From: Kiritimatiellota bacterium
GTDB lineage: Bacteria; Verrucomicrobiota; Kiritimatiellia; RFP12; UBA1067
Assembly: GCA_009778475.1 (NCBI GenBank)
Contig: WRJS01000003.1
Location: 1-63,672 of the forward strand
DNA length: 63,672 nt
Reading direction: 5' to 3'
The notes beneath the pieces are model-generated. The model was not told where the DNA came from and did no database searches. It saw nothing but the letters and a program-made list of their open reading frames with translations. The first letter of the stretch is position 1. Each line of letters begins with the position of its first letter. Positions 34,553 through 48,861 of the stretch are shown in pieces. The position numbers were made by a program, and so were the translations under genes.

Positions 34553-37384
34553 TCACTTCTCGGTCATGCGGACGGCGTCGTCGAAGGTGGGGGCGCGGCG
34601 GAGGTCGGGGTGGTCGCGGAAGATGTCGGTGTTGCGGCGGAACCACCAGGTGCCGTAGTATTGGGCGTTGGTGTCGATCCAGTTGGTGACGCGGAGGCGT
34701 TCCTCGGGGGTGACCTTGGCGGCAACGTCGGCGTGCTTCTTGACGAGCCCTCGGGGGTCGTCGGCGCGGGTGGGGCTGCCGATGATGGCGGCGAGCAGCG
34801 AGGTGGGCGAGCCGAGCGACCAGGCGGGGAGGTAATGCACGTTGCCGGTCTTGGGGTGGTTCTCGCCGATGACCTGCCCGAGCAGGCCGCGGTCTCGGTT
34901 GTCGCGGCCCTTGCGGCGTTCCGGCACGAGCGATTCGTAGGACACGTTGAAGAGGCGCGTGCGCTCGCCGGAGAGGTTGAGTTTGCCTTTGGGCTCGGCG
35001 CCGGAGTGGCAGCGGGCGCAGTGTTTGTCGAGGACGGGCTGGACGTCGGTCTCGTAGTGCAGCGGGCGCTGACCGCGGGCCTCGCCCGGCTGCGCGGAGG
35101 GCGCGGAGGGTTTGCGGGCGAAGGCGGCGGGCTGCCCCGCGCTCTTCTGCTCGTTCTGGAACGCGCTCGCGCTCTCGGGGGTCTCGTGGCAGCCGATACA
35201 GGCGCGGGTCTCGCCGGGCATGTAGTTGACGAACGTGCGCTCGGTCTGCACGGCCATGTGGTGCTCGTCGAGGGCCTGTAAAAAAATGTTGGCGTTGGCG
35301 GGGACGGTGAAGTGCGCGGAACCGTCGGCCTCCACTGGCACGATGCCGTGCTGGACTTTGAGCCCGAGGTGGGTGTCTTTGGTGATGGCGATGTGCTGCT
35401 GGTCGTATTCGTCGTGGAAGCCTTTGCACTGCGCCGCCCACGGGCGCGGGACTTGCTCGAGGACACGCAAGTGCTTGACGGTTCCGCGCGGGACGCCGAC
35501 CAAGCCGTGATAGACGTCGCGCACCATGCAGACGGCCTGATTTTTGGCCGCGAGCGCGTTGTCGAGCGCGGTCGAAAGCACAGGCGGCACGGGGCGCGGC
35601 GCGAGCGGGATGGGGTGCCAGCAGGAGGTGTCCGCGTCGCGGTGGAGCAGACGCACCGCGCCCTTCGCGTCGAGCGCGTACAGGCCGTACCCCGCGGGCG
35701 CTTTCCAGTCGCCGAGTTCCGCCGGCTTGTGCGAGACGAGGAACAGGTCCGCCGACAGCGGGTAGGGGTTCGCGAACAGGTCGCCGCGCCCGCCGCCGTC
35801 ATTCTGCCACGGGTCACCATCGTCCTCGCGGAAGGCGAAGCCCGGCTCGGCGCGGATGTCCACCTGCGGGGTGAGGTAGGTCATCGGCTCGCGCGTGCGG
35901 ATGGGCTTGGTCATGTCGAGCAGGATGACGGTGCCGACGTTGTTCTGCGGGCAGTGCGGCACGCCCGCGACCACGTAGAGGTTCGGCGCGCCCGGCACCG
36001 CGCGCCCGAAGTTCAGCGTCGGCGGCAGCGCGACGTCGTTGCCGAAAACCTCGCTCGAGGCCGTGCCGTCGGGGCGCATCGCCCACAGGCACTTCACGCT
36101 CACCGCGCCCTTGTCCACGTACTCCCAGCGCGTGTAGAGGATGCGGCCGTCGGGCAGCATGGAGGGTCCCGTCTCGCTCACCGAACTGCGGCTCAGCTGG
36201 CGCATATTCGCGCCGTCCGCATCCATGCGGAACAGCACCGTCGTGGTGAAGTCGTCGGGGCCGTCGCACAGGATGCCGTACTGGCAGCGCGTCGACACGA
36301 ACGCGATCCCGCCGTCCGGCAGGTAGCACGGCTGGAGGTCGTCCGTGCCGTGATGGTAGTGCGGGTACTTGCGGTACTTCGCCACGAGGTCCGCCTCGTC
36401 GGCCTGCGGGAACGTCAACTGCCGCAGGCCCGTGCCGTCCGCGTTGACCTCATACAGGCGGTAGCCCTCCTCGTGCTTCCCCTTCCACGCGAACACGATG
36501 CGCCGCGCGTCGAACGACACGTCGAAGCGCTCGAACACGCCGCCCGCCATCTGCGGCACGACATCGCGCACCGCGCCCGTCGCCACGTCCAGCACGCACA
36601 GCCGCGACCCCGGCATCCACGAACTGTTGATGTACTCCGTGTAGTAATGGTTCGAGTCATACGTCCGCCGCTTCACGAACACGATCTCCCTCGCGCCCGC
36701 CGCGGCCACGGCCCGCCGCGTCTCGGGCAGGACGCTCTCCTCGGCCCGCGGCGGCTTCGGCGTGTCCATCAGGTTGTACGCCGCCGCAAGGCGGCGTATC
36801 TCCGCTTCCGCCAGCACCGCGTCCTCGACAACGAACCCCGCCAGCCGCCCCGTGAAGAAGCGGCTCCTCCCCTCCCACGAGCCCAGATGCCCCGCGTGGC
36901 CGAAGTCCAGCGGCGGCGCCTGCTCCAACGCGCACTGGTCCACCTGCAGGCCGTTCCTGAAGCAGGTGACGCGCCGCGCCTTCGCGTCGTAGGTAATCGC
37001 GACAAACGACCACTGCCCCGGCCGCGCCCGCACCCGCGTGTGGAAATCGTTCTGCCCGCCGCCCGCCATGCGCATACCGTTCACGCAGAAGTTGACGCTG
37101 CCGTTGTTCAGCAGGATATGCACCATGCCCTGCGCCCAGCCGTCATGCGAGAAGATGGAGATGAAGCCATCCTGCTGCCGTGCGTCAGGGCTGATCAAAA
37201 AATGAACCGTGGCCTGCTCGAGTTGCCGCCCCGCGGCCTTGACCGCGACCGTGCTCGCCCTGCCGTCAAACGGCGGCGCGCCCGCCATCCCGCCCTCCCC
37301 CGCCGACACCACCCCCGCCGCCCGCGCAACCCCCGCGGCCGCCAGAAAAATCCCAATCACATAAAACACATTTCGCTTCATCAT
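34553..37384 (-). CDS. Secreted LamG-domain + PD40/TolB-like beta-propeller protein with two CxxCH haem-c motifs (paralogue 1)
   Basis: Signal peptide MMKRNVFYVIGIFLAAAGVARA. LamG-like N-terminal module (FTGRLAGFVVEDAVLAEAEI). PD40-type blades (YEVNADGTGLRQLT, RMDADGANMRQLS, TRWEYVD). Haem motifs CIGCHE, and VQPVLDKHCARCHSG (PSCyt-like). From memory this architecture resembles proteins annotated as HzsA-related. Confidence 0.7.
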   Translation of the reverse strand: MMKRNVFYVIGIFLAAAGVARAAGVVSAGEGGMAGAPPFDGRASTVAVKAAGRQLEQATVHFLISPDARQQDGFISIFSHDGWAQGMVHILLNNGSVNFCVNGMRMAGGGQNDFHTRVRARPGQWSFVAITYDAKARRVTCFRNGLQVDQCALEQAPPLDFGHAGHLGSWEGRSRFFTGRLAGFVVEDAVLAEAEIRRLAAAYNLMDTPKPPRAEESVLPETRRAVAAAGAREIVFVKRRTYDSNHYYTEYINSSWMPGSRLCVLDVATGAVRDVVPQMAGGVFERFDVSFDARRIVFAWKGKHEEGYRLYEVNADGTGLRQLTFPQADEADLVAKYRKYPHYHHGTDDLQPCYLPDGGIAFVSTRCQYGILCDGPDDFTTTVLFRMDADGANMRQLSRSSVSETGPSMLPDGRILYTRWEYVDKGAVSVKCLWAMRPDGTASSEVFGNDVALPPTLNFGRAVPGAPNLYVVAGVPHCPQNNVGTVILLDMTKPIRTREPMTYLTPQVDIRAEPGFAFREDDGDPWQNDGGGRGDLFANPYPLSADLFLVSHKPAELGDWKAPAGYGLYALDAKGAVRLLHRDADTSCWHPIPLAPRPVPPVLSTALDNALAAKNQAVCMVRDVYHGLVGVPRGTVKHLRVLEQVPRPWAAQCKGFHDEYDQQHIAITKDTHLGLKVQHGIVPVEADGSAHFTVPANANIFLQALDEHHMAVQTERTFVNYMPGETRACIGCHETPESASAFQNEQKSAGQPAAFARKPSAPSAQPGEARGQRPLHYETDVQPVLDKHCARCHSGAEPKGKLNLSGERTRLFNVSYESLVPERRKGRDNRDRGLLGQVIGENHPKTGNVHYLPAWSLGSPTSLLAAIIGSPTRADDPRGLVKKHADVAAKVTPEERLRVTNWIDTNAQYYGTWWFRRNTDIFRDHPDLRRAPTFDDAVRMTEK

Positions 37385-38298: not shown

Positions 38299-39798
38299 CT
38301 AATTGCTCTCGCTCGCCAACCCCGCGTACACGCCGACCAGCCCGTGGTAGGCGCGTTCCATGAGCGCACGGCGGGAGTGGTAGAGCGCCACGTTCGCCGC
38401 GTCGGGGGCGGTGGTCGCGTCAACCGCCATCAGTTGGTCCACCACGCTGAAATCCTTGAACAGCCCGCACGCCACGCCGCCGATGACTGCCGCGCCCATC
38501 GAGGTCGCGTCGGCCTTGGAGGTGATGGTCTGCACGGGGCAGGCGCACGCATCCGCCAGCATCTGGCGGAACACCGCGCTCTGCGAGCCGCCGCCGATGA
38601 TCGTCAGGCGGTCGATGGGGACGTGGGCGCGGAAGATGTCGGCGATCGTGCCGAGGCTGATGGCCACGCCCTCCAGCACCGCCCGCAGCATGTCCTCGCG
38701 CGTGGAGGCGAGGTTCAGGCCGATGAACGCGCCCCGCGCCTCGGGGTTCCACCACGGCGTGCGCTCGCCCAGCATGTACGGCAGGAACATCACGCCGTTC
38801 GCGCCGGGCGGCACGGCCGCGGCTAAATCGTCGATGGCGCTGTACGGCATCTTGCTGGCGCACAGTTGCTCCGCCATCCACTTGAAACTCGAGCCGGCCG
38901 TCTGCATCGTGCCGGACGGGTGCAGGTAGCCGGGGACGCAGTGCGCCCAGTTCATCGTGCGCATCTGCTCGTCCACGATGGGCTTCTCGACCGTCAGCGC
39001 GACCCAGCTCGACGAGCCGAGGCAGTTGTACGCCGAGCCCGGCCGCACGCACCCCACGCCGACCCCCGCCGCGCTGCCGTCGCCGCCGCCCGCCGCCACG
39101 GGGGTGCCGGCCGCAAGCCCCGTCTCACGCGCCGCCTCTGCCGTGACCCCGCCGATGAGGGTGGCGGAGTCCACCGCCTTCGGGAACAGCGACACGTCCA
39201 GCCCCGCCAGCGCGATGAGCCGTTCCGACCACGTGAACGTGTTCAGATCAAACGCATTCGTCCCCGACGCATCCGAGAAATCCGTCGCCATCACGCCCGT
39301 CAGGCGGCAGTTGATGTAATCCTTCGCGCAGAGCGTCTTGCGGGTCTTTGCGAAAATCTCCGGCTCATTGTCGCGCACCCACATTAGTTTCTCCAGCGTG
39401 TACGACGCACTCGCGCGGTGACCGCAGATGCCGTAGAACTCGCGCAGAGAAATCTTCTCCAGCAGCGCCGCCTCCTGCGCGGTCGCCCGCTGGTCGCAAT
39501 AGAGGATGGACGGCCGCAGCGCGCGCCCCTGCGCGTCCACGGGCGTGCAGCCCATCATCTGGCCGCTCAGCGACACCACCGCGATGTCGCCCGGCGCGAC
39601 GTCCGCCTCCGCGAGCAGTTTGCGCGTCGAATCGCAGACCGCCCTCCACCAGTCCTCCGGGTCCTGCTCCGCCCACGTCCCGTTGAAGAACCGCGAAGGG
39701 TACGCGACCGTCGCGCTGGCCTTCTGTGCGCCCTCCTGCGTGTAGAGCGTCGCCTTGTTCCCGCTCGTGCCCAAGTCATGCGCCAAGATGTACTTCAT
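38299..39798 (-). CDS. FGGY-family carbohydrate kinase (xylulokinase-like)
   Basis: N-terminal MKYILAHDLGTSGNKATLY (FGGY phosphate-1 motif), about 500 aa, C-terminal GGG.QS..W.Q..AD pattern. AAGGAG SD upstream. Substrate cannot be determined by eye. Confidence 0.8.
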   Translation of the reverse strand: MKYILAHDLGTSGNKATLYTQEGAQKASATVAYPSRFFNGTWAEQDPEDWWRAVCDSTRKLLAEADVAPGDIAVVSLSGQMMGCTPVDAQGRALRPSILYCDQRATAQEAALLEKISLREFYGICGHRASASYTLEKLMWVRDNEPEIFAKTRKTLCAKDYINCRLTGVMATDFSDASGTNAFDLNTFTWSERLIALAGLDVSLFPKAVDSATLIGGVTAEAARETGLAAGTPVAAGGGDGSAAGVGVGCVRPGSAYNCLGSSSWVALTVEKPIVDEQMRTMNWAHCVPGYLHPSGTMQTAGSSFKWMAEQLCASKMPYSAIDDLAAAVPPGANGVMFLPYMLGERTPWWNPEARGAFIGLNLASTREDMLRAVLEGVAISLGTIADIFRAHVPIDRLTIIGGGSQSAVFRQMLADACACPVQTITSKADATSMGAAVIGGVACGLFKDFSVVDQLMAVDATTAPDAANVALYHSRRALMERAYHGLVGVYAGLASESN

Positions 39799-39818
39799 GG
39801 TGTTAATACTCCTTATGG

Positions 39819-40352
39819 TTAGGGATGAAATCCAATCTGCTTACGCTTGGGTTGCGCCGCTTCGCGCCTGTCCTTTTGCAGCAGGTAGTCCAGTGCCTGA
39901 TGCACGGTGTGGAATTTCTGGTCGTACTTTCTTTCCAGCTCTTGAAGTTTCTCGGTGAGGTCTTTATGGCTCAATGCGTACTGGCGCATGAGGACGAATG
40001 CCCGCATAATTGTGATGTTCACCTCGATGGCAGTCTTGCTGTTGAGGAGGCCGGACAACATGGCGACGCCCTGCTCGGTGAAGGCGAAGGGCGGGGCGGA
40101 ACTGTGTTTTATCGTCGCATGGAACTGGTCACAATTTGTGACCAGTTCCTGCCACTCGCTTTTTGAAAGCGGAAACATGAAGTCCGTCGGGAACCGTTCA
40201 AGGTTACGCTTGACAGCCTGTTTGAGCGCCTTGGTCGGCACGCCGTACAGCTTGGCGAGGTCGAAGTCGAGCATGACCTGCTTGCCGCGCAGGATATAAA
40301 TTTGGCCTTGGACTGCTAGGGCATCCGTTTGCTTCGGGGTTATGGGCTTCAT
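39819..40352 (-). CDS. ORF6N-domain protein, copy 1 (divergent central cassette)
   Basis: IYILRGKQVMLDFDLAKLYGV...AVKRN.ERFP.DFMF...FAFTEQGVAMLSGLLNS..AIEVNI.IMRAF is the ORF6N (KilA-N-related, phage antirepressor-type) pattern. Codons ~39-90 differ from copy 2. Confidence 0.8.
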   Translation of the reverse strand: MKPITPKQTDALAVQGQIYILRGKQVMLDFDLAKLYGVPTKALKQAVKRNLERFPTDFMFPLSKSEWQELVTNCDQFHATIKHSSAPPFAFTEQGVAMLSGLLNSKTAIEVNITIMRAFVLMRQYALSHKDLTEKLQELERKYDQKFHTVHQALDYLLQKDRREAAQPKRKQIGFHP

Positions 40353-40474
40353 TTACCTTTCTCCGAGTGCGCCGAGGGTTTCCGCGTCGCGCTGGCCTTC
40401 TGCGCGCCCTCCTGCGTGTACAGCGTCGCCTTGTTCCCGCTCGTGCCCAAGTCATGCGCCAAGATGTGTTTCAT
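40349..40474 (-). pseudogene. Duplicated 5' fragment of the FGGY kinase gene (41-codon chimeric ORF)
   Basis: Manual translation from ATG 40474 gives MKHILAHDLGTSGNKATLYTQEGAQKASAT (30 kinase codons, with its SD) followed by RKPSAHSEKGK*. The tail is read from a duplicated tail of gene 41023..43965. The TGA overlaps the ATG of ORF6N copy 1 (ATGA). Confidence 0.8.
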
Positions 40475-40494
40475 GGTGTTAATGCTCCTTATGG

Positions 40495-41022
40495 TTAGGG
40501 ACGAAACCCAATCTGTTTGCGTTTGGGTTGTGCCGCATCCTGCCTGTCCTTTTGCAGCAGGTAGTCCAGAGCCTGATGCACGGTGTGGAATTTCTGGTCG
40601 TACTTTCTTTCCAGCTCTTGGAGTTTCTCGGTGAGGTCTTTATGGCTCAATGCGTACTGGCGCATGAGGACGAACGCCCGCATGATGGCGATGTTCACCT
40701 CGATGGCGGTCTCGCTGTTGAGGAGGCCGGAAAGCATGGCGACGCCCTGTTCGGTGAAGGCATAAGGCAGTTTCCGAGTACCACCCCAACTTGATATCGC
40801 AAATTGCGATATCAAGTTTTCTGCTTCCTGCTTTGTAAGCTGAAACATAAAGTCATCAGGGAAACGTTTAATGTTTCGCTTTACTGCTTCGTTTAGCCTC
40901 ATCGTTTTCACGCCGTACAGCTTGGCGAGGTCGAAGTCGAGCATGACCTGCTTGCCGCGCAGGATGTAGATTTGGCCTTGGACAGCTAGGGCATCCGTTT
41001 GCTTCGGGGTTATGGGGTTCAT
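40495..41022 (-). CDS. ORF6N-domain protein, copy 2 (canonical core)
   Basis: Same N- and C-terminal sequences as copy 1. The central part (RFPDDFMFQLTKQE...SSWGGTRKLPYAFTEQG) fits the usual ORF6N motif. Its ATG (41020-41022) directly abuts the stop of the upstream gene (41023-41025). Confidence 0.85.
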   Translation of the reverse strand: MNPITPKQTDALAVQGQIYILRGKQVMLDFDLAKLYGVKTMRLNEAVKRNIKRFPDDFMFQLTKQEAENLISQFAISSWGGTRKLPYAFTEQGVAMLSGLLNSETAIEVNIAIMRAFVLMRQYALSHKDLTEKLQELERKYDQKFHTVHQALDYLLQKDRQDAAQPKRKQIGFRP

Positions 41023-43965
41023 TTACCTTTTCCCGAGTGCGCCGAGGGTCTCGGCGTCGAGCTTGTCGGCGGCGTCGCGCTTGGCTTTGTACTGCTCGTG
41101 CTTTTTCATCTCGTTCTCGTCCCAGGTGTTGGCTTCGACGTAGTCGGCGCAGAAGGGCACGGCGAGGTCCACCCACAGGGCGAGGGTGGCGATCTCTTCG
41201 GGCTTGATGGTCTTGCAGTGGCCTTTGTCGAGGCGCTCGAAGAGCGCGCTGGTGTTGGAGCCGACGGTGAGGGGTTTCTGGATGGGCGGCGCGGAGGCGG
41301 CGGACACCCAGTTGACGCCCTTGTGGTTGGGGTCGCCACGGTAGCGGCGGTCGGGGTTCTTCATGTCGGGCTTGGCGTGGGTGAGGGTGAGGTAGGATTG
41401 CGTCCAGTTGCGCTTGGCGTGGTCGTCCTTGACGATGGTGGCGCGGAAGTCGGGGCGTTTCTCTTCTTTGCCGTCGTGGCATTTGACGCAGTTGCGGTCG
41501 AGGATGGGCTGGACTTCTTTGACGAAGCTGAACCCGCGGCGGGGGCCGCCGATGGGGGCGAGTTTCTGCGCCCCTGCGGCGAGGGCTTGGGTGGGGCGGG
41601 CGGTGGCGAGGGGGACGCTGTTCTTGGGTTCGTGGCAGCCGACGCAGGAGGCGTTCTCGCCGGACTGGAGGGTGGTCCAGCTGCGCATGGTCTGCACCAT
41701 GCGCCCTTTGTCGTCGAGGAGCATGAAGTAAACGGGGCGGCGGGCGTCGGTGGTGAAGAACACGGAGCCGTCGGGGTAGACCGTCGCGTCGCCGACGAGG
41801 ATCTTGGGGTCCCACGCGCCGTTGCCGATGGCGACGGGGGTGCTGATGTCGGCGGCGCCGCCGGGGCCGCCGTTGCCGTTGTTGCCGATGCCGGCGATGC
41901 GGTAGTCGAGCTCGATGACGCGGAGGGTCTTGACGGTTCCGCGCGGCACGTCGTTCATGGCCTCGCCGACGTACACGTCCTGGACGTAGAAGGTGCCGTC
42001 GCGCTTGGCGTAGTTGACGGCGGAGGGGCGCTCGGGCGGGCGTCTGCGCGGGGCGAGGGGGACGGCGCGACCGGTCGAGAGCGTCATGCGCGGGGCGAGC
42101 AGCTCGCGGTTGCCGTCGATGTCCATCCAGTAGAGGCCGAAGCCGGTCTTGCGCTCTTCGCGGCGGGTCCCGTTGCGCTGGTTCCAGCCGGTGGGGTTGT
42201 AGGTGACGAGCAGCTGCCTCGCGTCGATGGGGTACGGGTACATGAACAGGTCGCCGCCCTGCCCGTAGGCGTCGATGACGATGGGGCGCTTCTCGGGCGG
42301 CTCGCGCACGGGCGCGACGATGGTGATGCCCTCGGTCTCTTGGCGGCCCTTGCCGGGCTCGATGTAGATGAGCTCGCCGGGCTGGCGCGAGTGGTGGCCC
42401 GTGGCGACGGCGAACATATTGGGCGAGCCGGGGATGCAGCGGGCGTGGATGATGGTCGTGGGGAACCACGAGTTCTCGCCATAGACGGCGGACTGCGCGG
42501 TGCCGTCGGGCATCATCTGGAACAGCGCCTGCGGGTACATCTGCGAGCGGTCGTTGTACTCCCAGCGCGTGTACAGCACGCGGTTGTCCCACGTGATGAC
42601 GGGGTAGTTGACGTGCACCTGGTCGAAGCCGAGGCGCAGGATGTTCCCGCCGTCCGCGTCGCAGCGGTACATATTGCTCACCTCGGTGTAGAAGCAGTCC
42701 ACGATCTGCTGGCAGCGCGTGGAGATGAACACGATGCTCCCGTCCGCGAGGTAGCACCCCTCGTAATCCGCGATGCCCAGCCCGCCCGTCAGCTGGCGCA
42801 CCTTCGACGCGTCCGGCACCCCGTCCGCGCCCACGGGCATCTCGTAGAGGCTGTAGTCGTCGCCCCTGTCCGACTTCTTCCACGCGAACAGTACCCGCTT
42901 CCCGTCGAAGTCCACGTCCACGTCGCGGATGATACCCTCCTTCGAGTCCAGCAGCACCGTCTCCTTCCAGAACCCGCCCGGCTGGTACTCCGCCAAGCAC
43001 AGCTGCCCGCCCGCCTGCCACGACCGCTCATGCTGCGCGTCCGACAACGCCTCCGTGTACGCATAATGCGACGCGCCCATCACGAAATGCCGCGCGAAAA
43101 CCACCTTCGGCATCTGCGCCCCCGCCTTCGCGAGGCGATGGTCGCGGCGCAACTGGCATACATTCTTGTAGGACGCCAGCAGCACTTTCAAATCATCCCC
43201 AGCGCCTGGGATAATCCCCAGCCGCTGCCTGAAAACATCAGCCCACTCCCCCGCAAACGCCTTCTCCGCCGCCGCCGCCAGATTCGGGCGCACCGCCCCG
43301 TCCTTGAAAACCCCCTTGCCGTACAGATCCCCCGTGTCCTGCCGCAGCCAGTCCGCCAGCAGCTCATTCTCCCGCTCGATCAGATCCCACAGCTTGCCGA
43401 TGGTCTCGCACTCCTCCGGTTTCAGCTCGCGCCCCAGCGCCAGCCTCGCGAACTCAACCGCCTCGGGATAGACCACCTGCCCCATGTCGAACACGATGTC
43501 CACGTCGATGCCCTGCCCCCCGCTCGTCTGGAAGCAATGCACCGCCACGGTGTTCTCCCCCGCCTTCAACGCCTTCAACAGCTCCGGCGTCGCGGGGATG
43601 TCCCTGTAGGCCGTGATGAAGCCCTTCGTCTTGCAGACCTCCACGCCGTTGACATAGACCTCCGTGTCCTCGTCATGGATGATGCGGACGAACGGCGGGA
43701 TTTTGAGATGCTGCTCCGACACATTGAACGTGCGCACCAGCCAGATGTCCGGCGTGTTCCAGATTGTGCGGATGTTCATGCCCGGCGTCCCGTGCGTGCC
43801 GAACACGCTCTTGCCCTCTTTCCACGCCGACACATCGAACCCCGGCTTAAACCACCCCTCCGCCGGCCTCTCCGTGGTGTACCGCCACGTATGCACCTCC
43901 TGCCCCCGTGCCGCCATCACGCCGCACGCCAACATCATCGCCAACATCATCCGTCCAGTTTTCAT
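41023..43965 (-). CDS. Secreted galactose-binding-like domain + beta-propeller protein with two CxxCH motifs (paralogue 2)
   Basis: ATG 43965 follows GAGGAGG. Signal peptide MKTGRMMLAMMLACGVMAARG. The N-terminal jelly roll resembles GH2-type sugar-binding domains (SAWKEG...VYVNGVEV...GENTVAVH). Propeller blades are present, plus CVGCHE and VQPILDRNCVKCHDG. Confidence 0.7.
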   Translation of the reverse strand: MKTGRMMLAMMLACGVMAARGQEVHTWRYTTERPAEGWFKPGFDVSAWKEGKSVFGTHGTPGMNIRTIWNTPDIWLVRTFNVSEQHLKIPPFVRIIHDEDTEVYVNGVEVCKTKGFITAYRDIPATPELLKALKAGENTVAVHCFQTSGGQGIDVDIVFDMGQVVYPEAVEFARLALGRELKPEECETIGKLWDLIERENELLADWLRQDTGDLYGKGVFKDGAVRPNLAAAAEKAFAGEWADVFRQRLGIIPGAGDDLKVLLASYKNVCQLRRDHRLAKAGAQMPKVVFARHFVMGASHYAYTEALSDAQHERSWQAGGQLCLAEYQPGGFWKETVLLDSKEGIIRDVDVDFDGKRVLFAWKKSDRGDDYSLYEMPVGADGVPDASKVRQLTGGLGIADYEGCYLADGSIVFISTRCQQIVDCFYTEVSNMYRCDADGGNILRLGFDQVHVNYPVITWDNRVLYTRWEYNDRSQMYPQALFQMMPDGTAQSAVYGENSWFPTTIIHARCIPGSPNMFAVATGHHSRQPGELIYIEPGKGRQETEGITIVAPVREPPEKRPIVIDAYGQGGDLFMYPYPIDARQLLVTYNPTGWNQRNGTRREERKTGFGLYWMDIDGNRELLAPRMTLSTGRAVPLAPRRRPPERPSAVNYAKRDGTFYVQDVYVGEAMNDVPRGTVKTLRVIELDYRIAGIGNNGNGGPGGAADISTPVAIGNGAWDPKILVGDATVYPDGSVFFTTDARRPVYFMLLDDKGRMVQTMRSWTTLQSGENASCVGCHEPKNSVPLATARPTQALAAGAQKLAPIGGPRRGFSFVKEVQPILDRNCVKCHDGKEEKRPDFRATIVKDDHAKRNWTQSYLTLTHAKPDMKNPDRRYRGDPNHKGVNWVSAASAPPIQKPLTVGSNTSALFERLDKGHCKTIKPEEIATLALWVDLAVPFCADYVEANTWDENEMKKHEQYKAKRDAADKLDAETLGALGKR

Positions 43966-44028
43966 AATTCCTCCTCGATTTAACAGTTCACACATTTTCG
44001 CATATCGTTTGCGCAAAGTCAATTCCTC

Positions 44029-45861: not shown

Positions 45862-48471
45862 TTACTGCGGCAGCCTGAACATCCGCTTCTTGCCGCCGTC
45901 CACGTAATACACGGACGGGAGGATCGCGCCGTCGGCGTCGCGGGGCAGGCGCGCATCCTGGGAATCGAAATCGTCTTGGCAGAAGGCGCGGTGGATGCGC
46001 GGGGCGGTCTTCATCAGCGGGGCGTGGGTCAGACCCGCGTAGTTGGGGTGGCGCAGGTAGGCGGCGGCGTCGGGGGCATCGCGCTGGAGAATCTCCTCCT
46101 CGCCGATGTAGGGGCAGTGCGCGTCCACCCACGCGACGAGCCGCGCCTCTTCCTCGGGCGTGACCTTCACGTCGTTGTGCTTGCCGGAGGTGGCCTTGGC
46201 GATGAGGCGGCTCTTGTACGACATCGCGGTCATGGGCGGCGGCACGGTGTCGCGCGTGGGGACTTTCCAGTCGGGGTTCGGATAAACGTAGTACGGGAAG
46301 AGCGGCCCGGCGATGGAGGTCTTGGGGTAGTCGTCAACCGTCTTGGGGTTCTTGCCGAACACCATCAGCACATAGGGCCAGCTGATCTGCGAGTTGCCCT
46401 CGTAGCGCTTCGTGAAATCCATCTCGCCTGCGGGCTCCTTACCGCTGTGGCAGGTGACGCAATGCTTGTCCAGCACGGGCTGCACGAAGCGGTCGAAGCC
46501 GATGGTCTCGTCGCCCCACGCGGGCGGCGCGGGCCTGCTGGGCGGGCGCCGCATGGCGAGGGAGTCGCGCTGCTGCGCGGGCGGGAGGATTTGCGTCTCG
46601 TGGCAGCCGACGCACCCGCGCACCTCGCCGGGCATGACGTGCGTGATGGAGCGCATGGTCTGGAGGCACCGCCCGCGCTCGTCGAGCAACTGGAAGAAGA
46701 TGGGGCGCACGGGCGGTATCGCGAAATGCACGCTCCCGTCCGCCTCCACCGGCACCGTGCCGATGACGCGCTTGACGCCCTCGTCATAGACCAGCGACAT
46801 CGCGGGCGAGCCGGGGATCATCCACCCTTGCGTCGGGTATGCGCCGAGCTTGCGGTACGGCTCGGACTGGTCCATCGTCGTGCGGTTGCCGAAGCAGTCG
46901 CCGAACACGACGGGGTCCACCTCCATCACGCGCACGGCCTTGGCCATGCCGCGCGGGATCGTTGTGCCCTCATACACGTCCGCGCTATAGACCACGCCCC
47001 ATTCGGGCTCATGGCCGGGCCCCTTCATCTTGCCCTGCCACTTCACCTGCGAGTGGATGACGGGCGGCGCCTCGCGCGGCTGGAGGGGCTGCGCGAAGAA
47101 GATGTTGTAGGCGCCCGCATAGACGAGCTCCATGTTGCCGTCGTAGTCCATCAGGAAGAGCTTGAACCAGCCGGGCTCCTTGTCGCGCTCCAGCACGAAA
47201 TCCGTCCCGCGCCGCGCCGACACCAGCAGCAGGTCGCGCGCGAACGGGTACGCCGTCTGGAACGCCTTGTAGCACGGCGGCGCGGTGAACATCGCCTGAT
47301 GCGGCACGTCCTTGGGACCATGCCCGACCTCCGCCCACGGCACGGATGGCGTGAGGTTCTCGATGCCGTCGGGGTAGTTCATGCCCTTGCTCGCGTCGAT
47401 GAGCGCCAACGCGCCGTCGTACATCTGGTGATGCCCCGGCGTGTCGCACAGCACCTGCAGCGTGCCGGGGCGCGGCCGCGCGTTCACCTGCATATCCGGC
47501 CAGTAGCTCTGGTTGCCCCAGTACGCGCTGATGGCCGTGCCGTCGGGGTTCATCGTCCAGAGGCTCTGGACGCGGTTCACCTCGCGGTCGATGTACTCCC
47601 AGCGCGTGAACAGCAGCCGCCCGTCCGGCATCAGCACGGGCGTGTAGTCCGTCTCGTTGTTCGCGCTGATGAAGTAGATGTTACGGCCGTCCATGTCGCA
47701 CCGCGCCAGCACGAACATCCTGAACTTCGAGTCCCCGCAGCGCAGGTACTGGTTGCACCGCGACGTGGAGAACACGATATGCCCGTCCGGCGTGTAGATC
47801 GGGTCGAGGTCGTTGTACAGCCCACTCGTGATCTGCCGCAGGCCGCCCCCGTCGATGCCGATCTCGTAGAGGTTGTACGTCGGCCCGTCCTCCGGCTTCA
47901 TGCAGAACAGCACGCGCGTCGCGTCGAACGAAAGGTCCGGCCGCATGAACGCCCCGCGCACGCCCGACGGCGCGAGCTTGCGTACCGGCGCGTCCGGCGA
48001 CAGCCCCTCCACCACCAGCAGCCGCCCCCCCGGCGTGGCCGTGTTCTCCGTGCGGTGACGCGCCTGATGCACCGCCTCCGAGCCGTGCGTGTACGGGTTG
48101 TCCGTCAGCAGCAGCGACGTGAAATCAATCTGCGGGTCGGCGAACATCAGCCGCCGCTTCATCTCGCGGATTTTCAGGTACAGCGCATCGCCCGGCATCT
48201 CCGAATTCAGCGCATCCAACTCCGCGCGCGCGCCGCCGCCCTGCCGTTGAAGGATACGCTCCACCCGCCGCAACTCATCCGCGCACGCCAGCGCGATGTC
48301 CGTGCCGCCGCGTTGCGCGGCCCACTCCTCCCGCACCAGCCGCGCCGCCTCCTCCGCAGACAGCCGCGCCGTCGGCGGCTCCGGGAACGCCGCCGGCCCG
48401 AACGTCGCGCCCCGCGCCGCCCACGCGCCCGCCAGCACCGCCGCCATGAAAAACATCCTCATCCTTTTCAT
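45862..48471 (-). CDS. Secreted beta-propeller protein with two CxxCH motifs (paralogue 3)
   Basis: ATG 48471 gives MKRMRMFFMAAVLAGAWAARG. It has propeller blades (LYEIGIDGGGLRQIT, TRWEYIDRE), plus CVGCHE and VQPVLDKHCVTCHSG. It lacks the extra N-terminal binding module seen in paralogues 1 and 2. Confidence 0.7.
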   Translation of the reverse strand: MKRMRMFFMAAVLAGAWAARGATFGPAAFPEPPTARLSAEEAARLVREEWAAQRGGTDIALACADELRRVERILQRQGGGARAELDALNSEMPGDALYLKIREMKRRLMFADPQIDFTSLLLTDNPYTHGSEAVHQARHRTENTATPGGRLLVVEGLSPDAPVRKLAPSGVRGAFMRPDLSFDATRVLFCMKPEDGPTYNLYEIGIDGGGLRQITSGLYNDLDPIYTPDGHIVFSTSRCNQYLRCGDSKFRMFVLARCDMDGRNIYFISANNETDYTPVLMPDGRLLFTRWEYIDREVNRVQSLWTMNPDGTAISAYWGNQSYWPDMQVNARPRPGTLQVLCDTPGHHQMYDGALALIDASKGMNYPDGIENLTPSVPWAEVGHGPKDVPHQAMFTAPPCYKAFQTAYPFARDLLLVSARRGTDFVLERDKEPGWFKLFLMDYDGNMELVYAGAYNIFFAQPLQPREAPPVIHSQVKWQGKMKGPGHEPEWGVVYSADVYEGTTIPRGMAKAVRVMEVDPVVFGDCFGNRTTMDQSEPYRKLGAYPTQGWMIPGSPAMSLVYDEGVKRVIGTVPVEADGSVHFAIPPVRPIFFQLLDERGRCLQTMRSITHVMPGEVRGCVGCHETQILPPAQQRDSLAMRRPPSRPAPPAWGDETIGFDRFVQPVLDKHCVTCHSGKEPAGEMDFTKRYEGNSQISWPYVLMVFGKNPKTVDDYPKTSIAGPLFPYYVYPNPDWKVPTRDTVPPPMTAMSYKSRLIAKATSGKHNDVKVTPEEEARLVAWVDAHCPYIGEEEILQRDAPDAAAYLRHPNYAGLTHAPLMKTAPRIHRAFCQDDFDSQDARLPRDADGAILPSVYYVDGGKKRMFRLPQ

Positions 48472-48861
48472 CCTGTCCCCTCCAGCAATTAAAGCGTCCA
48501 GTATAACGCCTCCCGCCAACCGTTTCAAGCCCTTGTTGAGAGGATTATCCCCATCCTCGACTTTGGGTGTCATAAATGTCGTCTATTGCCCGTCTTCCCA
48601 CGTCCTCCCGTGGTCCTGTTGAAGGTCTCCCGTCCGGGACTTGAAAGTAACGGATTCATGTCGTTGTGAATTGTGACCTTCCCGACTCTCGATTGAATCT
48701 CGGGGTTGAGGACAGGCCTATTGGAGTCATTTAAGGTGAAGTTGTCACAGCCATCTCTGAAAACGCCGAAGGTGTGTAACATGCGGGGCAACTATTTCCC
48801 GAGGAGGTCTAGTAAAACGGTCTTGAGCCTTGCGGTTTTAGGACACGTCTAATATATGCCC

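What the first reader, a model, noticed from the sequence alone, without database searches (positions are those of the whole stretch)
39711..41059. 676-bp tandem duplication created two ORF6N genes with a swapped central cassette and a translationally coupled kinase-gene relic
Unit 1 (39711-40386) and unit 2 (40387-~41059) each contain three parts: the last ~35 nt of the upstream haem-propeller gene, an ORF6N gene, and the SD plus first 30 codons of the FGGY kinase gene. The junction lies at a gcgtcg microhomology (40384-40389). There are three consequences.
1. A 41-codon chimeric ORF (40474-40349) keeps the kinase SD and ATG, and its TGA overlaps the ATG of ORF6N copy 1 (ATGA). This couples copy 1 to a strong initiation site.
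2. The two ORF6N genes are near identical at the nucleotide level in their 5' ~115 nt and 3' ~265 nt. They are unrelated at the DNA level, yet homologous at the protein level, across ~150 nt (40087-40238 versus 40763-40908; aa ~39-90, the core of the DNA-binding ORF6N fold).
3. Copy 2 carries the canonical motif (SSWGGTRKLPYAFTEQG). Copy 1 carries a deviant one (IKHSSAPPFAFTEQG).
Homogenised flanks with a maintained divergent core suggest gene conversion plus selection for two specificities. ORF6N/KilA-N domains are usually found in phage antirepressor-type proteins, yet no prophage is present here.
Basis: seen in the sequence. Interest (0 to 1): 0.65.

Follow-up and report, generated by a model that had tools for sequence, protein, structure and literature searches.

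The report
Duplicated ORF6N gene with swapped core
A termite-gut bacterium has tandemly duplicated a small, horizontally acquired DNA-binding (ORF6N) gene of a candidate anti-phage family, and the two copies differ only in a recombined central segment built around a palindrome that this gene family conserves across many phyla.

Summary
A 676-bp tandem duplication (units 39709-40384 and 40385-41060) doubled an ORF6N gene together with 30 codons of the downstream xylulokinase-like gene and about 32 nt of the upstream propeller-cytochrome gene. The junction also stands in contigs of two public termite-gut runs.

The flanks are 93.7% identical, so "near identical" is too strong. The central ~150 nt is about 51% identical. 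Codon identity at same-residue sites is 6/20 there against 100/115 in the flanks, so it was replaced by recombination, not by divergence.

Copy 1's motif is not deviant. It belongs to a second large class of the family. Both copies match PADLOC candidate PDC-S05 over their full length. The 41-codon ORF and its ATGA overlap are real but an expected by-product.

Other tandem ORF6N arrays show the same identity trough.

The main new point is that each cassette holds a perfect 29-31-nt palindrome. Related palindromes sit at this site in ORF6N genes of many phyla, are read in two frames, covary in their arms, and also occur upstream of ORF6N genes. Their function is untested.

The parts
41023..44022 (-). 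Upstream gene: 999-aa beta-propeller/cytochrome-c protein (HZS_alpha middle domain). Its TAA stop abuts the ATG of ORF6N copy 2, and its last ~32 nt belong to the duplicated unit.
   Evidence: ORF list. Pfam PF18582, E 2.2e-27.
40385..41060 (.). Duplication unit 2 (the ancestral arrangement at its right end): kinase relic, SD spacer, ORF6N copy 2 and the true propeller-gene tail.
   Evidence: Alignment; repeat families D1/D2.
40495..41022 (-). ORF6N copy 2 (175 aa). It has the class A core (…NLISQFAISSWGGTRKLPYAFTEQG) and is colinear with its closest relatives (84% to P0002).
   Evidence: Pfam PF10543, 125 bits. PADLOC PDC-S05, E 7.4e-60. Homologues.
40762..40910 (-). Central cassette of copy 2 (149 nt, GC 0.40; aa ~39-87).
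   Evidence: It is 84-89% identical at the DNA level to four termite-gut relatives, against 69-84% for the flanks.
40788..40818 (.). Perfect 31-nt palindrome inside cassette 2 (AACTTGATATCGCAA-T-TTGCGATATCAAGTT on the gene strand). It encodes NLISQFAISS.
   Evidence: RNA fold -21.3 kcal/mol, z -6.0.
40349..40474 (-). 41-codon chimeric ORF: kinase SD and codons 1-30 (Y3H), then 11 codons of the propeller tail read in another frame. Its TGA overlaps the ATG of copy 1 (ATGA).
   Evidence: No Pfam match. No RNA runs found.
40384..40389 (.). Duplication junction (gcgtcg). CGTCG is shared by both parental sites (39709-39713 and 41056-41060).
   Evidence: Sequence; alignment. X2 contig 40331-40451 spans it with no mismatch.
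39709..40384 (.). Duplication unit 1: true kinase 5' end, SD spacer, ORF6N copy 1 and the propeller-tail relic.
39819..40352 (-). ORF6N copy 1 (177 aa). It has the class B core (…ELVTNCDQFHATIKHSSAPPFAFTEQG).
   Evidence: Pfam PF10543, 105.6 bits. PADLOC PDC-S05, E 7.2e-57. Class B relatives.
40086..40240 (-). Central cassette of copy 1 (155 nt, GC 0.54; aa ~39-89). In the predicted fold it spans helix 40-49, strand 59-61, helix 64-73 and the loop, ending just before strand 89-92.
   Evidence: AlphaFold model with pLDDT 84.
40121..40149 (.). Perfect 29-nt palindrome inside cassette 1 (GGAACTGGTCACAA-A-TTGTGACCAGTTCC on the gene strand). It encodes ELVTNCDQF and holds the family core GGTCACAAWTTGTGACC.
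   Evidence: RNA fold -30.2 kcal/mol, z -8.5.
38299..39798 (-). Downstream gene: FGGY kinase (xylulokinase-like). Its SD and first 30 codons were copied into unit 2.
   Evidence: Pfam FGGY_N/FGGY_C. NCBIfam XylB, 404 bits against a cutoff of 380.

Best explanation
Setting. The locus belongs to an uncultured, high-GC termite-gut bacterium, probably of the PVC group. A solitary ORF6N gene of lower GC, probably acquired horizontally, sat between a propeller-cytochrome gene and a xylulokinase-like gene. It was packed so tightly that the upstream stop abuts its ATG.

Step 1, shown. Illegitimate recombination at a 5-nt CGTCG microhomology, between kinase codon 30 and the last codons of the propeller gene, produced a 676-bp tandem duplication. 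This left two ORF6N genes and a 41-codon chimeric ORF between them.

Step 2, shown as an outcome, with an inferred mechanism. About 150 nt in the middle of one copy was replaced by recombination with a different ORF6N gene of the other core class. The crossovers fell in the two nucleotide blocks the family conserves best, those encoding DLAKLYGV and P.AFTEQGVAM. Which copy is the recombinant is not settled. Copy 2 is colinear with the nearest relatives.

Step 3, inferred. The proteins are probably dimeric DNA-binding proteins, with an ORF6N domain followed by a long helix. They belong to the PADLOC candidate anti-phage family PDC-S05. The swapped segment covers most of the ORF6N fold, so the pair probably offers two binding specificities on nearly identical N- and C-terminal parts.

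Step 4, inferred. Each cassette is built around the family's conserved intragenic palindrome. This is most likely a cis element, either an operator-like site or a hairpin. It may also provoke the breaks that seed such exchanges.

The relic ORF and its ATGA overlap are by-products of the duplication. At most they carry ribosomes to copy 1, as the propeller gene does for copy 2.
For: Duplication and junction. The junction stands in two public runs.

Foreign origin of the gene:
- The ORF6N genes have GC 0.52-0.54, against 0.63 for the window and 0.65-0.79 for the neighbouring genes.
- Distant syntenic relatives L002 and L003 have a propeller and a kinase gene but no ORF6N.
- Close ORF6N relatives sit as single genes in unrelated operons of other contigs, with GC below that of their hosts.

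Replacement rather than divergence:
- Identical codons at same-residue sites are 6/20 in the cassette against 100/115 in the flanks, p = 3.7e-7.
- Copy 2's cassette is 84-89% identical in DNA to four relatives.
- Copy 1's cassette belongs to a second class, with best matches of 65-75%.
- Both classes occur on the same flank family in other genes, P0028 and P0051.

Recurrence: about 13 of 187 ORF6N loci hold tandem arrays. These show the same identity trough at gene nt ~180-270 and high identity at the ends.

Family and function: PF10543. Full-length PDC-S05 match at E 1e-57 to 1e-60. One PDC-S05 representative cut plating of T7 and T5 about 1000-fold in E. coli (bioRxiv 10.1101/2024.09.26.614923, read). 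An ORF6N gene lies between hsdM and hsdS in Treponema.

Fold: models with pLDDT 84 and 74, with a long helix after the domain.

Palindrome.
Against: - No donor of either cassette was found at the DNA level. The best match to cassette 1 is 70-76% in DNA and 75% in protein.
- The direction of the swap is open.
- No expression data exist.
- The neighbours are sugar-utilisation-type genes, not a defence island.
- The PDC-S05 protein that was tested is described as carrying a RhuM domain, which Pfam does not find in these two proteins. The defence role is therefore an extrapolation.
- Selection for two specificities was not tested. Neutral retention of a recombinant duplicate is not excluded.
- DNA binding, dimerisation and any role of the palindrome are untested.
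Confidence: 0.75

Rival explanations
1. Assembly artefact: the tandem repeat comes from mis-joining reads of two ORF6N alleles or strains, and the genome holds one copy.
For: The source is a metagenome. ORF6N-like sequences are very abundant in it: depth reaches 400-500 over cassette 2, against about 17 for this organism. L001 is not demonstrably independent.
Against: The junction joins the propeller tail to kinase codon 30, a sequence that exists only if the duplication is real. It is covered by contigs in two runs from different samples. One is a 121-nt contig with no mismatch that reaches from copy 1's start into the kinase relic. The two units also differ at 33 flank sites, as expected of two real loci.
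Confidence: 0.03
2. Ordinary in-place divergence: after the duplication the centre of one copy simply evolved fast, under relaxed or positive selection, with no import of foreign sequence.
For: The centre of the domain is the most variable part of the family, and its loop tolerates insertions.
Against: Synonymous sites are as scrambled as the rest: 6/20 identical codons against 100/115 in the flanks. The cassettes differ in length and in GC (0.54 against 0.40). Each cassette matches a separate, widespread class, and cassette 2 is 84-89% identical in DNA to genes in other contigs. Identity changes abruptly at both borders.
Confidence: 0.03
3. Concerted evolution, the first reader's version: the two genes are old and distinct, and their ends are kept alike by continuing gene conversion while selection keeps the cores apart.
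For: An X2 contig links cassette 1 to unit-2 alleles at 14 of 14 sites between 39792 and 39945. Flank mismatches are patchy, with only 2 in 133 nt at 39866-39998. The Parabacteroides array has ends that are 96-100% identical and a centre that is 49-80% identical.
Against: The kinase relic and the propeller tail prove a single duplication event. They diverge about as much as the ORF6N flanks (95.6% and 87.5%, against 92.5-96.4%), so no extra homogenisation is needed. The X2 contig could be a chimera formed through a 53-nt identical stretch.
Confidence: 0.25
4. Neutral by-product: the duplication and the mosaic copy have no functional meaning, and one copy is on its way to loss.
For: Frameshifted and truncated ORF6N genes are common. 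There is no defence-island context here and no expression data.
Against: Both ORFs are intact and score far above the Pfam threshold. Flank differences are mostly silent, with 120 of 126 residues identical. The same two-class or multi-core tandem layout recurs in unrelated genomes.
Confidence: 0.2

Closest known systems
PADLOC candidate anti-phage system PDC-S05 (single-gene candidate; short ORF6N form, HMM PDLC04856)
   Same: Both copies match the 177-position profile end to end, at E 7e-57 and 7e-60. The length and architecture agree: an ORF6N domain plus a helical C-terminus.
   Different: The only experiment found tested one PDC-S05 member, described as carrying a RhuM domain, which Pfam does not detect here. 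This locus is not in a defence island. A tandem pair with exchanged cores has not been described for PDC-S05 in the papers searched.
Phage antirepressor-type proteins with KilA-N/ORF6N/Bro-N N-terminal domains (PHROG phrog_4792 'anti-repressor')
   Same: The N-terminal ~115 residues match the profile, at E 5e-28 and 5e-32. It is the same DNA-binding domain superfamily (own knowledge: Iyer et al. 2002).
   Different: Only the first 130 of 268 profile positions are matched, so the C-terminal part of those phage proteins is absent. There is no prophage around the locus. Only 5 of 50,697 phage records hold a relative.
Specificity-subunit genes of type I restriction systems (hsdS), whose variable target-recognition segments are exchanged between conserved flanks
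   Same: In both, conserved ends serve as recombination substrates around a variable, specificity-bearing middle, and multiple tandem or nearby copies occur. ORF6N genes are even found inside such operons (Treponema).
   Different: The protein fold is unrelated. There is no recombinase gene and no inverted gene copy here. The exchange seen is a one-off mosaic, not a demonstrated switch.
MerR-type regulators (winged helix followed by a long dimerising helix, bound to palindromic operators)
   Same: The predicted architecture is a small alpha/beta DNA-binding domain followed by a ~38-residue helix. A palindrome is associated with the gene, including sites 40-200 nt upstream of some family members.
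   Different: Foldseek matches to MerR, MarR and Ski/Dachshund domains are not significant (best E 0.12). There is no sequence similarity to any solved structure. In most members the palindrome lies inside the coding sequence.

Membership tests
ORF6N domain family (Pfam PF10543) | Match to the family HMM above the curated gathering score | tested here: met
   Copy 1 scores 105.6 bits and copy 2 scores 125 bits, against a cutoff of 27.8. Both cover profile positions 2-84 of 86.
PADLOC PDC-S05 candidate defence system | Full-length match to a PDC-S05 profile | tested here: met
   PDLC04856 positions 11-173 of 177, at E 7.2e-57 and 7.4e-60.
PADLOC PDC-S05 candidate defence system | Protection against phage infection | not testable with these tools
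   Only literature on one other member is available. It reports ~1000-fold lower plating of T7 and T5 and ~10-fold lower plating of T4 in E. coli B (bioRxiv 10.1101/2024.09.26.614923).
PADLOC PDC-S05 candidate defence system | Location among other defence genes (the basis on which such candidates were proposed) | tested here: not met
   The neighbours are a propeller-cytochrome gene, a xylulokinase-like gene, CstA and a phosphoesterase. A relative in Treponema does sit inside a type I restriction operon.
Phage antirepressor (KilA-N/ORF6N N-domain plus a C-terminal effector domain, in a prophage) | Two-domain architecture with the C-terminal antirepressor part | tested here: not met
   The PHROG match covers only profile positions 12-130 of 268. 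Pfam finds no second domain.
Phage antirepressor (KilA-N/ORF6N N-domain plus a C-terminal effector domain, in a prophage) | Prophage or phage genome context | tested here: not met
   The Pfam scans of the neighbouring ORFs returned no phage-type family; several scanned ORFs had no match at all. Only 5 of 50,697 phage records hold a relative.
Microhomology-mediated tandem duplication | Two head-to-tail units whose novel junction joins the two ends of the unit at a short shared sequence | tested here: met
   The units are 676 nt apart. CGTCG is shared by 39709-39713 and 41056-41060 and is present once at the junction.
Mosaic gene formed by recombination or gene conversion | Abrupt change of identity, synonymous sites included, with each segment matching a different lineage | tested here: met
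   Codon identity is 6/20 in the cassette against 100/115 in the flanks, p = 3.7e-7. The cassettes fall into class A and class B respectively.
Mosaic gene formed by recombination or gene conversion | Identified donor sequence | tested here: inconclusive
   No near-identical donor was found in the metagenome loci, the protein databases or the two runs. The rest of this genome is not available.
Translationally coupled gene pair | Stop codon of the upstream ORF overlapping or abutting the start codon of the downstream ORF | tested here: met
   The relic ORF and copy 1 overlap as ATGA. The propeller gene and copy 2 abut as TAAATG.
Translationally coupled gene pair | Translation of the upstream ORF, and dependence of the downstream gene on it | not testable with these tools
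   No RNA runs hold the region.
Conserved cis-acting palindrome or hairpin | Base pairing kept through changes on both sides across relatives | tested here: met
   In 29 anchor-aligned sequences, 85% of cells are paired against 67% in shuffles (0 of 500 shuffles as high). Ten of 15 pairs change on both sides, and slid controls give 27-41%. In 94 genome sites, positions 9-13 pair in 71-95% against 33-45% when shuffled.
Known RNA families (Rfam 15) | Match to a curated covariance model | tested here: not met
   No match near its gathering score in 39600-41200.

The most novel reading that the evidence does not exclude
The swapped cassette may be a self-contained specificity module. It would encode the DNA-recognising middle of the ORF6N domain and, inside the same ~150 nt, the palindromic site on which that protein (or its mRNA hairpin) acts.

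Across many phyla the family keeps this 27-31-nt palindrome at the nucleotide level. It is read in two different frames (RSQ[I/F]VT or VT[N/I]CD), and copies also sit 40-200 nt upstream of some ORF6N genes.

Exchanging the cassette would then retarget protein and site in one step. The palindrome itself, as a hairpin or cruciform, could provoke the breaks that drive such exchanges and the frequent frameshifts at this spot.
Probability: 0.2. Interest if true: 0.85.

Novelty: new variant of a known kind. Interest (0 to 1): 0.6.

Why it matters
Taken alone, the duplication is a clean, datable example of how a small, horizontally acquired gene of a candidate anti-phage family diversifies. It was duplicated at a microhomology, and then the middle of its DNA-binding domain was exchanged with another family member. 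The same layout recurs in other bacteria, which suggests that pairs or triplets with different cores on shared ends are the working form of these genes.

The wider point is the palindrome. A nucleotide-level element conserved inside a protein-coding gene in many phyla, read in two frames, with covarying arms and with extra copies in front of some family members, is not accounted for by the protein. It offers a direct experimental handle on a large, poorly characterised family: about 17,000 clusters at 50% identity match the core. One can test what the ORF6N domain binds, how these genes are regulated, and why they form mosaics.

Tried and rejected
- **Synteny with a close genome.** None exists in the GTDB representatives. 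The best kinase matches are 65-71%, in Akkermansiaceae, Verrucomicrobiota, Phycisphaerales and Kiritimatiellae MAGs. Only L002 and L003 share a propeller gene near the kinase, and they have no ORF6N.
- **A degenerate DNA pattern from the conserved C-terminal flank.** It found nothing in genome contigs.
- **The protein search with the cassette 1 peptide.** It listed only proteins of 132 aa or less and did not even list copy 1 itself, so it is not exhaustive. The exhaustive representative search also gave nothing above 75%.
- **The idea that cassette 2 is a more recent import than its flanks.** It has low GC and is 84-89% identical to relatives, against 69-84% for the flanks. I dropped the idea because the synonymous-site contrast is weak (p 0.02-0.57), the same contrast appears among the relatives themselves, and low GC in this segment is a class A trait.
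- **L001 as independent confirmation.** Rejected, because it differs from the window only by 4 Ns.
- **RNA evidence.** No RNA runs were found.
- **Solved structures.** There is no sequence relative and no significant Foldseek match.
- **Rfam.** Nothing.
- **Literature search for the palindrome sequence.** The only hit was a false CRISPR call in a taxonomy paper.
- **RNA versus DNA pairing.** G-T type mismatches (20) are not clearly commoner than A-C type (14) at positions 9-13, so this is undecided.
- **Solo palindromes without an ORF6N gene in the locus.** By my reading of the translations only (no family scan), they lie near assorted genes that look like HicB, an HsdR C-terminus, a TraD-like protein and housekeeping genes, or in decayed ORF6N remnants. 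About a quarter of the viral sites have no extension beyond the 17-mer and may be chance matches.
Full report
**1. What is in the sequence**

All genes in this stretch lie on the minus strand, in this order:
- a 999-aa propeller/cytochrome-c protein with an HZS_alpha middle domain (41023-44022);
- ORF6N copy 2 (40495-41022, 175 aa);
- a 41-codon ORF (40349-40474);
- ORF6N copy 1 (39819-40352, 177 aa);
- an FGGY kinase that passes the NCBIfam xylulokinase cutoff (38299-39798).

The repeat finder and a MAFFT alignment show two direct units, 39709-40384 and 40385-~41060. Each unit holds 90 nt of kinase 5' coding sequence, the 20-nt SD spacer, an ORF6N gene and ~32 nt of the propeller gene's 3' end.

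The junction reads gcgtcg (40384-40389). CGTCG is present at both parental sites, 39709-39713 and 41056-41060.

**2. Is it real?**

The window comes from a termite-gut metagenome. Contigs of two public runs from different samples and studies cover the junction. X2 has a 121-nt contig at 40331-40451 with no mismatch, and X1 has depth 14 there. The junction sequence, propeller tail joined to kinase codon 30, can exist only if the duplication exists.

The JGI contig L001 also spans it. It is identical to the window except for 4 Ns, so I do not count it as independent.

**3. Flanks and cassette**

The flanks differ at 33 of 521 sites, which is 93.7% identity:

| Segment | Identity |
|---|---|
| Kinase relic | 95.6% |
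| SD spacer | 95% |
| ORF6N 3' part | 92.5% |
| ORF6N 5' part | 96.4% |
| Propeller tail | 87.5% |

The duplication is therefore not recent. The non-ORF6N parts have diverged about as much as the ORF6N flanks.

The central segments, 40086-40240 and 40762-40910, are 51% identical in DNA and differ in length (155 and 149 nt) and in GC (0.54 and 0.40). At positions where the two proteins share a residue, identical codons are 6/20 in the cassette against 100/115 in the flanks (Fisher p = 3.7e-7). The centre is a replacement, not faster divergence.

**4. Where the cassettes belong**

The family is very large. A search with copy 2 filled its 8000-candidate limit. About 17,000 clusters at 50% identity match the core of copy 1.

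Copy 2 is colinear with its nearest relatives (P0002 84%, P0010 89%). These carry the same 'NLISQFAISSWGGTRKLPYAFTEQG' core and are 84-89% identical to cassette 2 in DNA.

Copy 1's core, 'ELVTNCDQFHATIKHSSAPPFAFTEQG', is not deviant. It belongs to a second widespread class, 'VTNCDxF..KHS', with best matches of 65-75%.

Both classes occur on the same C-terminal flank family in other termite-gut genes: P0028 is 71% and P0051 is 69% identical to copy 1. The pool for exchange therefore exists. No near-identical donor was found, and the direction of the swap stays open.

The borders of the cassette fall in the blocks the family conserves best, those encoding DLAKLYGV and P.AFTEQGVAM. That fits crossovers between diverged homologues.

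**5. The 41-codon ORF**

It keeps the kinase SD (AAGGAG) and 30 codons (Y3H). It then reads 11 codons of the propeller tail in a shifted frame and stops at a TGA overlapping the ATG of copy 1.

The ancestral junction is TAAATGA. Two of the three frames entering it terminate next to or across the ATG. Copy 2 is coupled to the propeller gene in the same way. The overlap is therefore an expected by-product. No RNA data could be found to test expression.

**6. What the genes are**

- **Pfam:** ORF6N at 105.6 and 125 bits, with no second domain.
- **PHROGs:** 'anti-repressor' profiles, but only their N-terminal half.
- **PADLOC:** a full-length match to the candidate single-gene defence family PDC-S05, at E 7e-57 and 7e-60.
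- **Experiment in the literature:** a preprint reports that one PDC-S05 member lowered plating of T7 and T5 about 1000-fold and of T4 about 10-fold in E. coli. It describes that member as having a RhuM domain, so transfer to these proteins is an inference.
- **Phage records:** relatives are rare, 5 of 50,697.
- **Plasmids and chromosomes:** relatives occur in Bacteroidota, Legionella, Treponema and others. One sits between hsdM and hsdS of a type I restriction operon.
- **Close relatives:** they are single genes wedged into unrelated operons, often with 4-nt overlaps, and their GC is below that of the host contig.
- **This locus:** the ORF6N genes have GC 0.52-0.54 against 0.63 for the window. 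Distant syntenic MAGs lack them.
- **Predicted fold:** the AlphaFold models (pLDDT 84 and 74) show a small alpha/beta domain followed by a long helix. The cassette runs from helix 40-49 through strand 59-61, helix 64-73 and a loop, ending just before strand 89-92.
- **Solved structures:** no significant relative was found.

**7. The pattern recurs**

Among 187 loci with an ORF6N gene, about 13 carry tandem arrays of two or three genes.

In Parabacteroides distasonis, three genes lie head to tail. Their first ~90 nt are 93-100% identical. Two of them have the last ~250 nt 96-100% identical. Their centres are 49-80% identical. Five further arrays show the same trough at gene nt ~180-270. L119 and L153 pair a class B gene with a class A-like one.

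It does not prove selection.

**8. A palindrome at the heart of each cassette**

*In the window.* Copy 1 holds GGAACTGGTCACAA-A-TTGTGACCAGTTCC (40121-40149). Copy 2 holds AACTTGATATCGCAA-T-TTGCGATATCAAGTT (40788-40818). Both are perfect, and as RNA they fold at -30.2 and -21.3 kcal/mol, with z scores of -8.5 and -6.0.

*In relatives found by protein similarity.* All 47 ORF6N cores examined have a 15-33-nt palindrome at the same place. So do a Legionella plasmid gene and the Treponema gene. A Sulfuricurvum gene and a Butyrivibrio gene do not.

*In genomes at large.* The core GGTCACAAWTTGTGACC was scanned as an exact pattern in one genome per species. By a ±330-nt test, 101 of 127 sites lie in or beside ORF6N-like coding sequence.

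*Two reading frames.* The same nucleotides are read as A-GG-TCA-CAA-WTT-GTG-ACC (RSQ[I/F]VT, 71 sites) or as G-GTC-ACA-AWT-TGT-GAC-C (VT[N/I]CD, 25 sites). These two frames correspond to the two core classes of the window's copies.

*Covariation.* Outside the fixed core, positions 9-13 from the centre pair in 71-95% of 94 distinct sites, against 33-45% after shuffling, with 3-4 pair types each. On 29 sequences aligned by a protein anchor, 85% of cells pair against 67% in shuffles (0 of 500 as high). Ten of 15 pairs change on both sides, and slid controls give 27-41%. The protein cannot explain this.

*Copies outside the coding sequence.* By a stricter test (centre within the domain hit ±30 nt), 47 genome sites lie outside an ORF6N domain hit. 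About a dozen of these sit 37-200 nt upstream of an ORF6N start. In viral contigs, 22 of 114 sites sit 57-81 nt upstream of the domain start. In the cases checked this is about 58 nt before the ATG, with arms almost identical to copy 1's internal palindrome.

*Instability.* Many ORF6N genes are frameshifted at this very spot, and some carry two palindromes in tandem.

*Prior knowledge.* Rfam and a literature search gave nothing.

*Open question.* Whether the element acts as duplex DNA (an operator), as a hairpin in RNA or single-stranded DNA, or merely perpetuates itself by hairpin-templated repair is not decided. G-T mismatches (20) barely exceed A-C mismatches (14).

**9. Reading**

- **Shown:** a real tandem duplication at a microhomology; a recombined centre; membership in ORF6N and PDC-S05; recurrence of the layout; a covarying palindrome in each cassette.
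- **Inferred:** horizontal origin of the gene; crossovers in conserved blocks; two DNA-binding specificities on shared dimerising ends; a defence role.
- **Speculative:** that the palindrome is the protein's own site, so that the cassette carries reader and site together; and that it provokes the exchanges.

**10. Verdict**

As a duplication with a mosaic copy, this is a new case of a familiar process in a poorly studied family.

Noticed in passing
window 40121-40149 and 40788-40818; loci L082-L295: Each ORF6N cassette holds a perfect 29-31-nt palindrome. Related palindromes (core GGTCACAAWTTGTGACC) sit at the same point of ORF6N genes in many phyla. They are read in two frames (RSQ[I/F]VT or VT[N/I]CD), and their outer arms covary.
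   Followed up: partly
L197, L214, L251, L277, L278, L241, L243, L271, L294, L258, L275, L261; viral loci L305, L312, L345, L392, L399 and about 17 more: Copies of the same palindrome lie 37-200 nt upstream of ORF6N gene starts. In one Bacteroides-like viral lineage the copy lies about 58 nt before the ATG, with arms almost identical to copy 1's internal palindrome. This layout looks like an operator.
   Followed up: partly
L175 5434-7167 (Parabacteroides distasonis); L115, L117, L119, L137, L140, L149, L153, L238: There are tandem arrays of two or three ORF6N genes in other bacteria. Their ends are near identical and identity drops around gene nt 180-270. L119 and L153 pair a class B gene with a class A-like one.
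   Followed up: partly
L141, L179, L191, L199, L271, L274, L292, L294: ORF6N genes here are split into two reading frames at profile positions ~60-80, which is at the palindrome. This suggests that the site is prone to insertions and deletions.
   Followed up: partly
window 39751-40268 as seen in run X2: A contig links cassette 1 to unit-2 alleles at 14 of 14 sites between 39792 and 39945, then to unit-1 alleles. This is either exchange between the two copies in another strain or a contig chimera through a 53-nt identical stretch.
   Followed up: partly
window 40716-40960 in runs X1 and X2: Depth over cassette 2 reaches 400-500, against about 17 for this organism. About 100 contigs match at 80-90% identity. 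Class A ORF6N genes are therefore very abundant in the termite-gut community.
   Followed up: partly
L170 246-791; L085 390-914; L167 1997-2449; L082 6001-6582: Close ORF6N relatives are inserted seamlessly into unrelated operons, with 4-nt overlaps or gaps of 2-12 nt. Their GC is below that of the host contig, and no mobility gene is nearby. How they get there is unexplained.
   Followed up: no
L272 ~2582 (828-nt ORF): The same palindrome lies inside an ORF that does not match the ORF6N profile. From memory it looks like a Bro-N type protein (…SVTNCDQLKFMAADGK…). I did not run a family scan on it. If that is right, the element is shared with a sister domain family.
   Followed up: no
L174 3965-4861 (Treponema saccharophilum pTS1): An ORF6N gene, preceded by a small winged-helix gene, lies between hsdM and hsdS of a type I restriction operon. 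A Fic gene and an HNH gene follow downstream.
   Followed up: no
window 34553-37384, 41023-44022, 45862-48573: Three paralogous ~900-1000-aa proteins with an HZS_alpha middle domain lie in one co-directional cluster with CstA and the kinase. One carries a Laminin_G_3 domain, and one has weak, below-threshold cytochrome-c family matches.
   Followed up: no
window 40788-40818, + strand: The consensus scan calls cassette 2's palindrome terminator-like on the strand antisense to the gene, with a 14-bp stem followed by TTCTGCTT.
   Followed up: no
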